A stretch of DNA of 64,000 bases from Eledone cirrhosa (lineage: Eukaryota): positions 25,544,001 through 25,608,000 of the forward strand of contig OZ024756.1 in assembly GCA_964016885.1 (NCBI GenBank), given 5' to 3'. Both the position numbers and the translations under genes were made by a program. Shown piece after piece: positions 10,291-63,461 of the stretch (its first letter is position 1; each line of letters begins with the position of its first letter). Below the pieces are notes generated by a model. That model searched no databases, was not told where the DNA came from, and saw only the letters and a list, made by a program, of their open reading frames with translations.

Positions 10291-13129
10291 TAGCGACAGG
10301 AAAGTGTAATGAAAATTTGATACCTCGTCCATAGTATTATTATTATTATTAACTTTGTCTTTCATCCTTACGGGGTTCGATAAAATAAAGCACCAGTAAC
10401 GCACGGAGGTCGATTTAATCGACTTTCCCCTCCCCCAAATTACTGGCCTTGTGTCTATACTCTGAGTTCAAATCCCGCTGAGGTTAACTTTGCCTTTCAT
10501 CCTTACGGGGTCGATAAAATAACGTACCAGTAATGTACTGTGTAATTGCTGGCCTTGTGCCTAAAGTAGAAACAATTATTATTATATATATATAATTAAA
10601 CATTTTTAGAAGCACAACTATCATACACAGATATATATATAGAGAAAGAATTAGATTTATTAAGGAAAATAATAATTCCCATAAAAAAAGGAGAAAAAAT
10701 CCTGTTCATAATTATCGACACCAAAAAAAATTTCGGAATTTTGGTGTATTCAATAAATGGCGAAGTTGACTTAAGTCGAACTCAGAATATAAAGGGAGAT
10801 AATTAAATAGGGCAAGTCACTTTGTGTCCACAGCTCTACAAATCCACCATGTCTATAATTGCTTTATTAACCACCCTCAACTCTATGTAGTGTTGTTCAC
10901 TACAAAGCAATTTATATGGAAATCTTTAAAAAAATAAAATATCATTGACAACTGATCAAAGACAAACTAAATATAACGCAGAGCGGTGAATTGAGAGAAT
11001 CGTTAGAATGTTGTATTGGTTACGGCTCTCTGCAATCCCGCTGTCATCAATCTTGTCTTTCATCCTTTCGATTCTTCTACATTTCTTTCTTTCCTTCCAT
11101 AGAAAAATCAACTGTAATCAAACCAGAAGAGGGGATGGGGCCTGTAAGGTTATTAAAAAATTGCTCAAGACACATATATGGCACCTCTAACAACTCCATC
11201 TGGAATTACGGGATCCATATATATATATTTATACACAGACACACACATTAAAACGCAACCATTTTTATTTATTTATTTATAAATTTTCCTCCATAAAACT
11301 GTACGCCACCCGATTATCCCCCTTCGTGGAATAAGTTATGTTATAACAATGAAAGGCAGGAATGATACGAGACCTTCTTGCGGTTCTTGGTGGAGGAAGA
11401 GTTACTTACCCTTGAATAGCTCTTGCATGTGGAAAAAAGATTTCACTTAATGTTATTGACCCGCCAGAAAAAATTATTTTTTTGCTCTTCGGGATATTCC
11501 TAATTCAACAGCAGCTGAAATATCTAAGGAAAGTCTGTAAGTAAATATTGCAAGGTTAATATGTTGCTAAGATAATTATTATACAGATCCCATTTGTTTA
11601 GGTGCAGTTTGTTTGTGGAGAAAAAAATCCCGTCTTTCCTCCAGTGCGCTCCGAAACAATCGACTACCGGAAAAATATTTGCAATTAAATATGCGTCCAT
11701 GTGTAAAACAGTAAACACCACCACCACTGCTTAAATGTCTCTCTACTTATCATCATCAGCTATTTCAATTCTCTATAAATACAATACATGCACATACGGA
11801 AAGTGAGACAACGAATGTGTATATATATTTATATATATCAATGTGTATGTTTAATATAGAATAGTGCTCGTTCCTTCGTTAACGTTCTTCTGTGTTTAGG
11901 GCTATGTTAATATATGGAGGAAACCTCAGAAGAGCACCACCACCCAGCTCACAGGCAATTTCACCCACACCACCACCTCCACAACCGACGTCCACTTTTT
12001 GACAGAAAGCCAACACAGCCTGGCATGTGGAGTGGTGATGGGGGTTAGGGCGGATTAGAATAGAAAACACACATCGCTCTATGTTTCTCTGTTTGCGTTT
12101 CTCACTAGATCTTTCCCCCCTTTTCTCGCACCACCCCCTCTCTCCCATTTTGTTCTCTCTGGTCGTGTGTGTCTACCTTTCTCACTCTATCTCCCATTTC
12201 CTTCCTTGTGCTCTCTTTTTCTCTTCCCCTCTCGTTCCCATTTTCTCTCACTTTTGTCTCTCCACATCCGATACGATCTTCCTTTTCTTCCACTCAACAT
12301 TAAAAAAAGAAAGAGGCTAACAACAAACTATAACAACATTGTTTATCTTTCCATTTACTTTTTAGGACATTAATGGGGGTTATTTTTTACATTGACTTTA
12401 GTATTTCTTTTTCCTCTGGTGAATTCGCGTGCGATTTTCCCCACATACACTCACATACATACGTATGTTTATAATGGATGTTCTTAATAGAGATCCATAG
12501 ATCCATTATGATTTTAAAATAAAGAATTTTGTTTGTAGGAAACAATGATTTCGTTATTGGCCTTTAAGTCCATAATAATCATATTTAGTTCAAATTTCTT
12601 TTTTTCCTCTTCGTGATCAATTGTATAATACTATTTTTATTACTAAATGTAGTTCTATCTACAAGTTTATATATATATAACTTGTGTGTATATGTGTGTG
12701 GTTAAATGCCAAATATGTGAAAATTTGAAATATGACCAAACTATGTGTGTTTACAGAAATGGATTATATATGTTAAAACTTACACTAGAAGTGTATATAT
12801 ATATATATATTTACTTCTAGTGTAAGTTTGTACATATAAATCCATTTCTGTAAACACATAGTTTGGTCATATTTGGCATTTAACCACATACTTATATATA
12901 TGCATTTATTGTTATTTTCCAATGTATGAATTTGTAAATTATGATATATCCAAAATATGCCCTATGCATTTATATATCTATCTGCATTGTATATATATAT
13001 ATATATATATATATATATATAGAATTTCGCCATTATTTAGTAACTTGTCGTCTTAGTCCTTACTATACTTTATCTAACTCCACCATTATTCAGTCAAGCT
13101 GTTCTTCCTATATTTGTTACTTTTTCCTC

Positions 13130-13890
13130 CACTAACTACATTTTAACCACCACTACTGCTAATATTAATATTATTATTAACGTTATAGTTGTCAACCCCT
13201 GGTTATAACTATTACTACTACTAATACTGATATTAACGTTATACCCCCCGCCCCCGATTATAACTACCAACGCCACTACTACTAATATTATTACTCACGT
13301 TATAGCCATCACCCCGATACTGACTACTACTAACGTTATGCCCAGCTTTCCCACCACCAATGCTACTATTACCATCATTACTAATGCTATAGTTGTTTAC
13401 ACTGTTTATAACTATTACTATTACTAACGTTTTAGTCGTAACACCTTTCCTCCAAGTATAACCACCACTGCTACAATCATCTTTAATACTATTATTAACG
13501 TGAGAGACGTCGTTTACCGCCGATTACTACTACTACTCCTAACGTTATAGTTGTCTCCCCCTCGATCGTAACTACTACTATTATTATTAACGTTATAGTT
13601 GCCCCTCCCAATATAACTATTACTATTATTACCAACGTTATAGTCGTAACACTTCTCCCCGAAATTACAACGACTGCTAGTATAGTATCATTAATATTAT
13701 TAACGTTATATATAGACGTCGTTTACACACGATTATAACCACCACTACCAATACTACTATTACTATTAACGTTATAGTCGTTACCCCCTACCTTCATTAC
13801 AATCACCACTACTGCTGCTAGTACTATTATCAGTATTACTATTACTACTAGCCACTACTAGTATTATTATTAATACCAACGTCGCTTTCC
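13130..13890. repeat. Degenerate ~45-60 bp minisatellite
   Basis: More than 10 units of (ACT)n-ATTATT-AACGTTATAG-T[CT]GT...ATTATAAC. Confidence 0.8.
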
Positions 13891-14994
13891 CTCCAATTAT
13901 ACTAACCTCCCTCTTATTGTCACGTTTCTAATAAGGTTTCTTTCTGTCGTCCTGGTAAACATTCCAGATAGACACTCACATATACACATATATATTAATG
14001 TCGATATAATTCTTATATCGATATTATTTGGGCATCCACTGGTGAGTTTATAAGAGCCCGCTTGTGTATAAAACTATGGATTATATACAAGTTTCTACAT
14101 AACCTGGAAATTATTTATCCCAAATTGTAGAAATCTTATAACAAAACGGCCGTCTGGAAGAAAAGAGATATTTATTTAATAATGTCTCATATAAAATAAT
14201 ACAACCAATTATCCACGAAATACTAAAATGGGATAATACTTGAGTATATCTTAATGGTTGTTGAGTGAGATGGAGTTGGTCGGAGTATCGCTTAAGGCTT
14301 TCTCTGTTTATGTATTGTATATATATATATATATAAATTGTTTCTACTTTTGGCACAAGGCAGCAATTATTCCAGTGTATTAGTGGTACTTTATTTTATC
14401 GACCCCGTAAGGATGAAAGGCAAAGTGAAACTTGGCGGGATTTGAACTCAGATTATAATATATATATATATATATATTAATGATCACTCATGTTAACCTC
14501 CCCTAAAACTCTGGTAGTATTTTTAACTATATATATTATAAAGCATCTGTGTGTGACTCTATCCGTAATGGACTGCATTTCATTATCGATATTTCATTAT
14601 TTAGTGTAGTGTTTGTTGTATTATAGCTAGTACCAGCAATATAATTGTCTATAGTTTAAATAATAAACCACTACTGTTGTCGTTTAACCTCAGGTCATAC
14701 CTGTCATGAAATGCTTTCGCCAGTCATGACCATATTTTGGAGGAGAAAGGAGTTAGTTTTAACTGGGGTGTTGTGTTGTGAAGGAAACATCTGACCCTTC
14801 GTTATCCAGTGTATACTTACTTGTTTGTCTAGGATTAAACATTTTTTTTTATAAACTTTCTCGTCTCTCACACTAACTAATCCACAGTTATACTTCTACA
14901 GTTTTATAACAAGACAGGAGGCTATTTTAGAACTGCCTCGGAATTTGCGTTACGTTTCGCTTTTTCTACCCGCCAAATTGTGATTCTCGCTGAA

Positions 14995-62282: not shown

Positions 62283-62955
62283 CGGATTTTCTACGGTGGG
62301 ATGCCCTTCCTAACACCAACCACATTTACAGTGTGGCACTGGGAGGTTTTTACCGTGTTACCTACACGGCCACATTACAGCGTGGACTGTGTGTTTTTTT
62401 TGTCGTGACACCTACACAACCTCATTTGTTTCGGCCTGGATGTTGTGGTACCAACATAACTTTACATTGAAAGGGGTGGTGTGGATGGGGTGGGGGTAGT
62501 GGGACGGGGGTGTATTTTGTTAGAGGTGCGTACTAACTGTAGTAGGTTTTACTTTGTATTTAGGTAAGGCGGGTCTTTTCTATTACTGTGTAGCGCCAAA
62601 GATCTCGATCCAGTGACATTGTCTTGGAGAGGTGTAAGTGTGTGAGGTCGGAATTTATCAAGTCGTCCCAGGTTTTTCTGGGTCTGCCTACTCCGTGGCT
62701 ACCGTCTATTTTTATTGCCCTGTACTTTTTTATACAGCTATCGTCTTTCATGTGCATCACGTGACTATACCAACGTAGCCTTCTCTCGAGTAAACAACAT
62801 CTGATCCCTCTTATTTCTAATTTTTCCCTTAGTTCGTTTATGCTTTGCCGTTCACGTATATTACTATTACACATCCAGCGGAGCATGCAAGCTTCATTTC
62901 TCTCCAGTCTGCGTATATCCTCTGCACACAATGCCCAGGTCTCACTGCCATGCAA
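62283..62955 (-). mobile_element. RTE LINE 3' fragment between TA arrays
   Basis: [29 protein letters not shown]...RRLRWY..GRPRKTW. Confidence 0.92.
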
Positions 62956-63461
62956 CAGTGAGACCTGGGCATTGTATGTATATATATATACATATATACA
63001 TATATATATACATATATATATATATATATATATATACATATATATATATATATATACATATATATATATATACATATATATATATATATATATATATACA
63101 TATATATATATATATATACATATATATATATATATATATATATATATATATATATATATATACACATATATATATATATATATATACATATATATATATA
63201 TATACATATATATATATATATATATATATACATATATATATATATACATATATATATATATACACATATATATATATATATATACACATATATATATATA
63301 TATATATATATATACACATATATATATATACACATATATATATATATACACATATATATATATATATACATATATATATATATATACATATATATACATA
63401 TATATATATATATACATATATATACATATATACATATATATACATATATATATATACACAT

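What the first reader, a model, noticed from the sequence alone, without database searches (positions are those of the whole stretch)
12697..62975. Recurrent signature: short fold-back inverted duplication joined to a TA microsatellite
Seen: the same architecture recurs at about ten unrelated sites. These are 18527-18738 (71-bp perfect arms), 20336-20386, 21944-22029 (31 bp), 51401-51455 (20 bp), 51928-52026, 62928-62975 (20 bp), 45091-45134, and palindromes centred on (TA)n at 12697-12888, 54796-54857 and 54862-54943. The duplicated DNA derives from different sources (hammerhead elements, RTE coding sequence, a SINE head, unique DNA), so this is not one MITE family. Inference: a common process is acting, such as snap-back priming or template switching at broken or retrotransposing ends followed by TA-array addition or expansion. 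That could help explain how kilobase microsatellites arise in this genome.
Basis: partly seen in the sequence, partly recalled or inferred. Interest (0 to 1): 0.75.

Follow-up and report, generated by a model that had tools for sequence, protein, structure and literature searches.

The report
Fold-back scars at TA microsatellites
Most mirror-image repeats beside TA microsatellites in this animal genome belong to repeat families laid out like known Penelope-type jumping genes, but a smaller set (estimated at 10,000-40,000) are local mirror copies of the DNA next to a TA run, likely scars of breaks whose loose ends folded back on themselves.

Summary
The inverted repeats are real and strongly enriched beside (TA)n (130 of 313 versus 9.3 expected in a 1.39-Mb genome sample), but they are not one process. 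Five of ten sites (18527, 20336, 21944, 51401, 51928) belong to high-copy families with the published Penelope-like (PLE) layout: inverted copy, tail at one end, TA on both sides. Two are the 3' ends of Hydra-clade PLE coding elements. The scan reported this PLE system before on other pieces of this genome. Site 62928 is an RTE 5'-junction snap-back. Site 45091 is a template switch 256 bp from any TA. Three sites (12697; 54796+54862, one double event) are one-off palindromes centred on TA. This class recurs: 15 of 1806 TA arrays versus 1.4 expected, 0 of 409 CA/AG arrays, 10 clearly local. It fits a break in the array, fold-back copying and rejoining, a mechanism known from yeast and cell lines; my searches found no genome-wide germline report. 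TA specificity is weakly supported (P 0.05-0.13), and a 403-kb biased second set showed no excess. Nothing supports fold-backs creating kilobase arrays.

The parts
12697..12888 (.). Site A: one-off palindrome centred on (TA)8, arms about 92% alike, 17-bp extra segment in the left arm (class 3)
   Evidence: no other copy among 5 of 5 candidates
12661..12685 (.). 7-bp-arm palindrome around (TA)6 just left of site A; possible second fold-back of a double event
   Evidence: sequence; too short to test
18362..18738 (.). Site B: short member of a 595-bp-unit tandem/inverted family with two fixed ends in TA; the 70-bp loop is family sequence read in reverse; hammerhead-like fold with variant core; no ORF found (class 1)
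20138..20386 (.). Site C: member of a 318-bp-unit family; tail end at 20138, turn at 20361, 25-bp inverted arm ending at TA; hammerhead fold with variant core; no ORF found (class 1)
21866..22029 (-). Site D: 3' end of a Hydra-clade PLE plus inverted copy and 78-bp tail, TA on both sides; 12 bp shorter than the common 177-bp form (class 1)
45066..45134 (.). Site E: about 30 bp of an old RTE LINE replaced by inverted local copies (short-range template switch); no TA within 256 bp (class 2)
50925..51096 (-). Second, older copy of the site G family with its own hairpin (50958-51017)
51311..51460 (-). Site F: 3' end of a second Hydra-clade PLE with family-wide hairpin (class 1)
51860..52030 (.). 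Site G: hairpin family with a minimal hammerhead (canonical core in other copies, mutated here) and a 63-71-bp tail; no ORF link found (class 1)
54796..54857 (.). Site H: SINE-head flank + (CT)n + (TA)11 + mirror copy; left half of a double fold-back (class 3)
54858..54943 (.). Site I: perfect 41-bp-arm palindrome on (TA)8, joined to H at a shared CAC; right half of the double fold-back (class 3)
62281..62957 (-). 5'-truncated RTE LINE copy between two TA arrays
62928..62975 (.). Site J: 20-bp snap-back at the 5' truncation of that RTE, primed on a 2-bp match, then joined to TA (class 2)
   Evidence: 0 of 24 other listed matches to the RTE motif show the fold-back

Best explanation
The ten sites are three different things: five are members of repeat families with the Penelope-like insertion layout in TA arrays, two are local rearrangements in RTE LINE copies, and three are mirror copies of flanking DNA centred on a TA run, likely left by repair of a break in that run. 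Class 1 (B, C, D, F, G; about 54-76 per Mb). Shown: family membership, two fixed ends in TA, family-constant tail, variable turn points, and a direct ORF link for D and F. Inferred: a PLE endonuclease/reverse transcriptase cut (TA)n and wrote a forward and an inverted copy. Class 2. J is inferred to be cDNA snap-back before 5' joining; E is inferred to be a template switch. Class 3 (A, H+I; about 7 per Mb). Shown: the structure L-(TA)n-reverse(L)-[TA, or reverse(R)-(TA)n]-R and, in the clear cases, arms closer to each other than to any other copy held. Inferred: the array breaks, the self-complementary TA end folds back and primes 14-200 bp of synthesis on its own flank, on one or both ends, and the ends rejoin through a few shared bases.
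For: Class 1: candidate counts 3574, 807, 1152, 1552 and 4198, 40 scored each. All 11 other D loci printed are hairpins between TA-type arrays. D lies 1.1-1.2 kb downstream of an RT + CxCX5C + GIY-YIG ORF with no TA array between in 12 loci from one search that returned 25; F lies 257 bp downstream of such an ORF in L175. Fold-backs turn inside PLE ORFs in L160, L164, L175 and L221. In the sample, 75 of 114 non-centred TA-adjacent repeats share their TA-abutting end with another copy, and 79 of 114 have the other end 25-175 bp from a second array; tails cluster by family (78, 55, 86, 34 bp). This layout and the (TA)n target are in print (PMC8557442, PMC3846280). Class 3: 15 of 1806 TA arrays in 13 loci versus 1.37 from shuffled flank pairs; 0 of 240 CA, 0 of 169 AG, 1 of 223 trinucleotide arrays versus 1.14. 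In 10 of 15 the arms match each other better than any other held copy, or have none. L091 arms are 99% alike while the other 39 scored copies of its LINE family are at most 97% alike and unmirrored. Double events recur in L106 and L192 (by eye). Yeast shows short fold-back inversions captured by end joining (PMC11724301), and TA cruciform cleavage is predicted to give two hairpin-capped ends (PMC12972899).
Against: B, C and G were not linked to any ORF in the sequence held. TA versus CA+AG contrast is weak: Fisher P 0.046 with all 15, 0.13 with the 10 clear cases. The prediction that an outer arm end abuts TA held in 7 of 15 versus 3.3 expected (P 0.03 at 3 bp; 8 vs 4.9, P 0.08 at 12 bp). A second, family-enriched set of 403 kb gave 5 of 659 TA arrays versus 3.6 expected, plus 1 of 58 in the CA class (a compound array with a TA-rich edge). 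Five of the 15 are opposite insertions, a PLE loop or ambiguous. No pre-event allele was seen, and the H/I joint was not covered by contigs. Break repair cannot be told from replication template switching on sequence alone.
Confidence: 0.7

Rival explanations
1. Class 3 palindromes are abortive PLE integrations: the TA-targeting PLE endonuclease nicks both strands, no RNA is engaged, and the freed TA ends are extended on flanking DNA by the PLE reverse transcriptase or a host polymerase.
For: Same target sequence; PLE-type fold-backs are about 8-10 times as dense in the same sample; the double form mirrors the two-armed PLE insertions; self-priming has been proposed for PLEs (PMC3846280 passages).
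Against: No PLE sequence lies in the joints of A, H/I, L091, L197 or L222; TA arrays break without PLEs in yeast and human cells. The repair step would look the same.
Confidence: 0.25
2. Class 3 arises without a break: a polymerase stalled in (TA)n folds the new strand back, copies it, and returns to the template at the TA run (short-range template switching).
For: Explains the single form L-TA-rev(L)-TA-R with two switches and no loss of flank (L091, L222); such events are enriched in AT-rich DNA in apes (PMC7954356 passages); site E shows a switch in this window.
Against: The double form (H/I, L106, L192) needs a further inter-strand switch, whereas two broken ends give it symmetrically.
Confidence: 0.3
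3. One process made all ten sites, and TA arrays were added or expanded at the fold-back ends.
For: 14-fold enrichment beside TA; adjacent arrays slightly longer (median 50 vs 40 bp, P 0.009).
Against: Five sites are family-wide forms with TA on both sides; E has no TA; long arrays 3 of 122 vs 27 of 1684; longer arrays are also larger targets.
Confidence: 0.05
4. The centred palindromes are assembly artefacts, or pairs of independent insertions in opposite orientation later made alike.
For: Pairs of opposite RTE tails exist (63745-63974, L168, L175); several centred arms are family ends (L082, L110, L170).
Against: Many arms carry 2-9% divergence; a short-read contig bridges the centre of I; both arms of I carry the same joint of two unrelated sequences, not seen in the other scored copies; several arms have no homolog in the sequence held.
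Confidence: 0.12

Closest known systems
Penelope-like elements, Hydra clade (Craig et al. 2021, PMC8557442: passages and section 11 read; Arkhipova et al. 2013, PMC3846280: passages)
   Same: RT with DKT, CxCX5C linker, C-terminal GIY-YIG with flanking CxxC and CxH; insertion in (TA)n; inverted 5'-truncated copy; tail at one end.
   Different: Tails here are mostly 34-170 bp, against 30-40 bp in the paper; several hammerhead cores are non-canonical; the density (54-76 per Mb) far exceeds the 336 Penelope-like insertions tabulated for Octopus vulgaris in the passage read (PMC13282606).
Metazoan non-LTR retrozymes (bioRxiv 10.64898/2026.07.22.740005, part 1 of 5 read)
   Same: B and C: non-coding tandem units with a hammerhead-type fold.
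   Different: Here they sit as back-to-back inverted arrays with two fixed ends; variant core; cleavage untested.
Snap-back 5' junctions of non-LTR retrotransposons (Zhang et al. 2024, PMC11371274, passages)
   Same: J: the cDNA end primes on itself before joining the target.
   Different: A natural RTE copy in a TA array, not an engineered R2 insertion in rDNA.
Short local fold-back inversions at double-strand breaks (yeast, PMC11724301, passages); TA-repeat cruciform breakage (PMC12972899 and PMC13645644, passages)
   Same: Inverted copy of break-adjacent DNA, 2-150 bp, captured with 0-5 bp microhomology; TA repeats as break sites repaired by end joining.
   Different: Here the TA run itself is the fold-back primer, both ends can fold back, and the products are fixed in an animal assembly at about 7 per Mb. 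The passages read report one-ended events at an HO cut, or deletions and short duplications at TA repeats.
Short-range template-switch mutations in great apes (PMC7954356, passages)
   Same: Create perfect local inverted repeats; favour AT-rich DNA; fits site E.
   Different: That text has no occurrence of 'microsatellite' or 'dinucleotide'; no TA-centred class is named in the passages read.

Membership tests
PLE, Hydra clade (D and F parents) | Single ORF with RT and C-terminal GIY-YIG endonuclease | tested here: met
   L218 ORF upstream of D has RT and EN by motif reading and tblastn to self-identified ORFs; L175 shows the EN part upstream of F. Pfam gave no family for related ORFs.
PLE, Hydra clade (D and F parents) | CxCX5C linker, CxxC and CxH around conserved E and N, DKT motif | tested here: met
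   CNCPDGSIC, CNLC, CKH in L218; CNCRNRVDC in L175. DKT was seen only in the related full-length L103.
PLE, Hydra clade (D and F parents) | Placement in an RT phylogeny with reference Hydra elements | not tested
   No reference sequences fetched; supplements not read.
PLE insertion layout (B, C, D, F, G) | Inverted 5'-truncated copy plus tail at one end | tested here: met
   Two fixed ends with variable turn points; tails longer than published.
PLE insertion layout (B, C, D, F, G) | Insertion into (TA)n | tested here: met
PLE insertion layout (B, C, D, F, G) | Canonical hammerhead in the terminal repeat | tested here: inconclusive
   Canonical core in G copies L004 and L063; variant cores in B, C and F; D gave no hit in that scan; Rfam found nothing in the window at gathering score.
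PLE insertion layout (B, C, G) | Link to an autonomous ORF | tested here: not met
   No contiguous ORF in held loci; treated as non-autonomous look-alikes, mobiliser inferred.
TIR/MITE DNA transposon | Terminal inverted repeats with fixed internal length | tested here: not met
   One arm is subterminal, and turn points and unit numbers vary.
Break-associated fold-back inversion (class 3) | Inserted DNA is an inverted copy of the adjacent flank | tested here: met
   10 of 15 sample cases plus A and I.
Break-associated fold-back inversion (class 3) | Short microhomology at the capture joint | tested here: inconclusive
   By eye 0-3 bases or TA-to-TA joins; outer-end test P 0.03-0.08.
Break-associated fold-back inversion (class 3) | Origin at a double-strand break and dependence on end joining | not testable with these tools
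   Needs genetics or break mapping.

The most novel reading that the evidence does not exclude
TA arrays in this animal's germline are recurrent two-ended break sites whose self-complementary ends both fold back, leaving 10,000-40,000 fossil single and double palindromes: a microsatellite-specific mutational signature, possibly fed by the nicks of the resident TA-targeting Penelope endonucleases, that would let TA-repeat break repair be read from genome sequence alone.
Probability: 0.35. Interest if true: 0.68.

Novelty: new variant of a known kind. Interest (0 to 1): 0.42.

Why it matters
The Penelope part is a known class and was already noted by this scan. The residual class matters more. 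TA-repeat fragility is studied in yeast reporters and cancer cells, mainly as deletions. A large fixed record of fold-back products would give arm lengths, joint microhomologies and the share of two-ended events in a germline. Comparing genomes with and without TA-targeting Penelope elements would show whether transposon nicks or cruciforms break these arrays. It is also a warning for annotation: hairpin-based MITE finders would likely misfile both classes.

Tried and rejected
Rfam scan of the window: 0 hits. Pfam gave no family for the Hydra-type ORFs, only weak RVT_1 for other PLE and RTE ORFs. The generic inverted-repeat tool was swamped by TA arrays. One script timed out and one ended in an error part-way; both were rerun. 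Linking G to an ORF through the L203 extension failed: none of the 5 new loci printed (of 12) had a PLE protein match and no contiguous G-ORF pair appeared. B and C: no ORF in 20 long stretches. Centred matches of 8-11 bp were mostly degenerate minisatellites and were dropped. Opposite RTE-tail pairs (63745-63974, L168, L175) were rejected as independent insertions. The second set of 403 kb did not show an excess over its family-inflated null. A fresh random replicate was not obtained. Contigs X1-X4 laid on 50800-55400 were dominated by repeat copies and skipped 54791-54866. The related organism X1 gave no orthologous piece at H/I. The C arms differ at a base that also varies among family copies; too weak to use. 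Helitron/HINE and MITE readings were rejected on variable turn points. Literature searches that found no report of genome-wide TA-centred palindromes; subscription papers and supplements were not seen.
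Full report
Setting. The window is G000:C17:25544001-25608000 of a 3.0-Gb animal assembly. It looks octopus-like by my recall of the repeat landscape; earlier scan notes say the same. About 11% of a 1.39-Mb sample is TA array.

Observation. The listed inverted repeats are in the sequence. Site 45091 is 256 bp from the nearest (TA)5. For a genome-wide test I took 139 evenly spaced 10-kb stretches (one of 140 requested did not exist). 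Of 313 inverted repeats with at least 20 non-microsatellite pairs and a loop up to 400 bp, 130 have an outer end within 10 bp of a TA array, against 9.3 by random placement. Copies of one family are not independent, so this shows association, not a count of events.

Class 1: Penelope-like layout (B 18527, C 20336, D 21944, F 51401, G 51928). Genome searches returned 1152, 1552, 807, 4198 and 3574 candidates, 40 scored each. All 11 other D loci printed are the same hairpin between TA-type arrays. Five of 7 printed F copies have the same hairpin joint. B and C are short members of families built from 595-bp and 318-bp units. They read inward from two fixed ends and turn at variable points, often after several units. 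The 70-bp loop of B is simply further family sequence in reverse. Turn points also vary among D, F and G copies.

Link to coding elements. D lies 1.1-1.2 kb downstream of an ORF with RT, a CxCX5C linker and a GIY-YIG domain, with no TA array between, in 12 loci from a search that returned 25. F lies 257 bp downstream of such an ORF in L175. These motifs, and DKT in the related full-length ORF of L103, match the Hydra clade as described in PMC8557442 section 11, which also reports insertion into (TA)n. The same paper and PMC3846280 describe the inverted truncated copy and the one-sided tail (passages). Fold-backs turn inside PLE coding sequence in L160, L164, L175 and L221. B, C and G were not linked to an ORF. 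G has a canonical minimal hammerhead in other copies. B, C and F show hammerhead-like folds with variant cores in my own pattern scan; Rfam found none in the window.

Scale of class 1. After removing overlaps, 128 TA-associated repeats remained in the sample, 114 of them not centred on TA. Of these, 75 share the TA-abutting end with another copy, and 79 have their other end 25-175 bp from a second array. Tails cluster by family. This gives about 54-76 per Mb. The scan noted this system before on other pieces of the genome; I reached the PLE reading before that look-up.

Class 2: RTE LINE copies. J is the 5' truncation point of an RTE lying between two TA arrays. The strand folds back on a 2-bp match, copies 18 further bases and joins TA. 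None of the 24 other listed matches to that RTE motif shows this. It fits the snap-back junction category of PMC11371274 (passages). E replaces about 30 bp of an old RTE with inverted local pieces, as in short-range template switching (PMC7954356, passages).

Class 3: one-off palindromes centred on TA (A, H, I). A has no other copy. No other scored place covers both arms of I. H and I are adjacent and share CAC at their joint, giving L-(TA)-rev(L)-rev(R)-(TA)-R. A short-read contig bridges the centre of I without differences; the H/I joint was not covered, and that sample may be the source of the assembly. In the sample, 15 of 1806 TA arrays have mirrored flanks of at least 12 non-microsatellite bases, against 1.37 from shuffled pairs. 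CA arrays gave 0 of 240, AG 0 of 169, and trinucleotide arrays 1 of 223 against 1.14. An earlier, looser version gave 17 of 1826 against 2.2. In 10 of the 15 the arms are closer to each other than to any other held copy, or have none; L170 is marginal. The other 5 are an RTE pair, a PLE loop and three ambiguous family ends. L091 is the clearest: a LINE flank, (TA)18, a 94-bp mirror 99% alike, then a short TA run; the other 39 scored family copies are unmirrored. Double events recur in L106 and L192 (by eye). Further examples are L030, L041, L049, L222 and L232. Ten events give 7.2 per Mb, or 10,000-40,000 genome-wide.

Weak points of class 3. TA against CA+AG is P 0.046 with 15 events and 0.13 with 10. 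Outer ends abut TA in 7 of 15 against 3.3 expected at 3 bp (P 0.03) and 8 against 4.9 at 12 bp (P 0.08); a first version with the window included gave 13 of 18 against 8.7. The second set (88 loci, 403 kb, chosen around young families) gave 5 of 659 against 3.6. No pre-event allele was seen.

Mechanism. I favour a break inside the array, fold-back of the self-complementary TA end, short synthesis on its own flank, and end joining. Yeast makes 2-150 bp fold-back inversions captured with 0-5 bp microhomology (PMC11724301, passages). AT/TA cruciform cleavage is predicted to leave two hairpin-capped ends (PMC12972899, passages). End joining at TA breaks is linked to small templated duplications in cancer cells (PMC13645644, passages). 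These steps are inferred. Replication template switching and abortive PLE nicking remain open.

Kilobase arrays. Arrays beside fold-backs have median length 50 bp against 40 bp, and reach 500 bp in 3 of 122 against 27 of 1684. Class 3 centres are 26-198 bp. There is no support for fold-backs generating long arrays.

Novelty. Classes 1 and 2 are known. For class 3 the chemistry is known. Searches found no genome-wide report of fixed TA-centred single and double palindromes, and the scan's own notes held no such class for this genome. No supplements were read; those of PMC8557442 could bear on the Hydra assignment. Verdict: new variant of a known kind, interest 0.42.

Noticed in passing
window 21866-22029 and L005 (G000:C1460): The window's 12-bp-shortened D hairpin has an identical twin with different flanks, and many loci carry a 177-bp form with the same joint: short fold-back units may be re-mobilised whole, or the turn point is a hot spot.
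   Followed up: partly
L036, L041, L183: Hammerhead-like folds with non-canonical cores (TTGATAA in families B and C, CAGAAGA in F); activity unknown.
   Followed up: partly
L160:2996-6074: A PLE coding region present as a near-perfect palindrome, turning inside the RT.
   Followed up: no
window 34765-38689: 3.9-kb array with no G or C in the 35001-38000 bins, built of 12-16-bp TA variants.
   Followed up: no
window 46775-48223: 1.45-kb satellite of 34-38-bp units.
   Followed up: no
window 63745-63974: Two RTE/SINE 3' tails facing each other across a TA array, 90% alike; read as independent insertions. RTE tails in the window commonly end in (GAT)n followed by TA.
   Followed up: partly
window 41681-42142 (-): Remnant of a GIY-YIG endonuclease of a second PLE type.
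   Followed up: no
   Followed up: no
window 28774-32616 (+), 50264-50707 and 58787-59284 (+): A 1280-codon open frame with C2H2 zinc-finger patterns, and exons resembling a Na+/K+-ATPase beta subunit (labels from recall, not searched).
   Followed up: no
L049:4800-5000: Centred palindrome with a second, shorter copy of the same flank just outside it, suggesting two rounds of fold-back.
   Followed up: no
L042: Over 25 head-to-tail copies of the 318-bp family C unit filling the 9-kb stretch.
   Followed up: no
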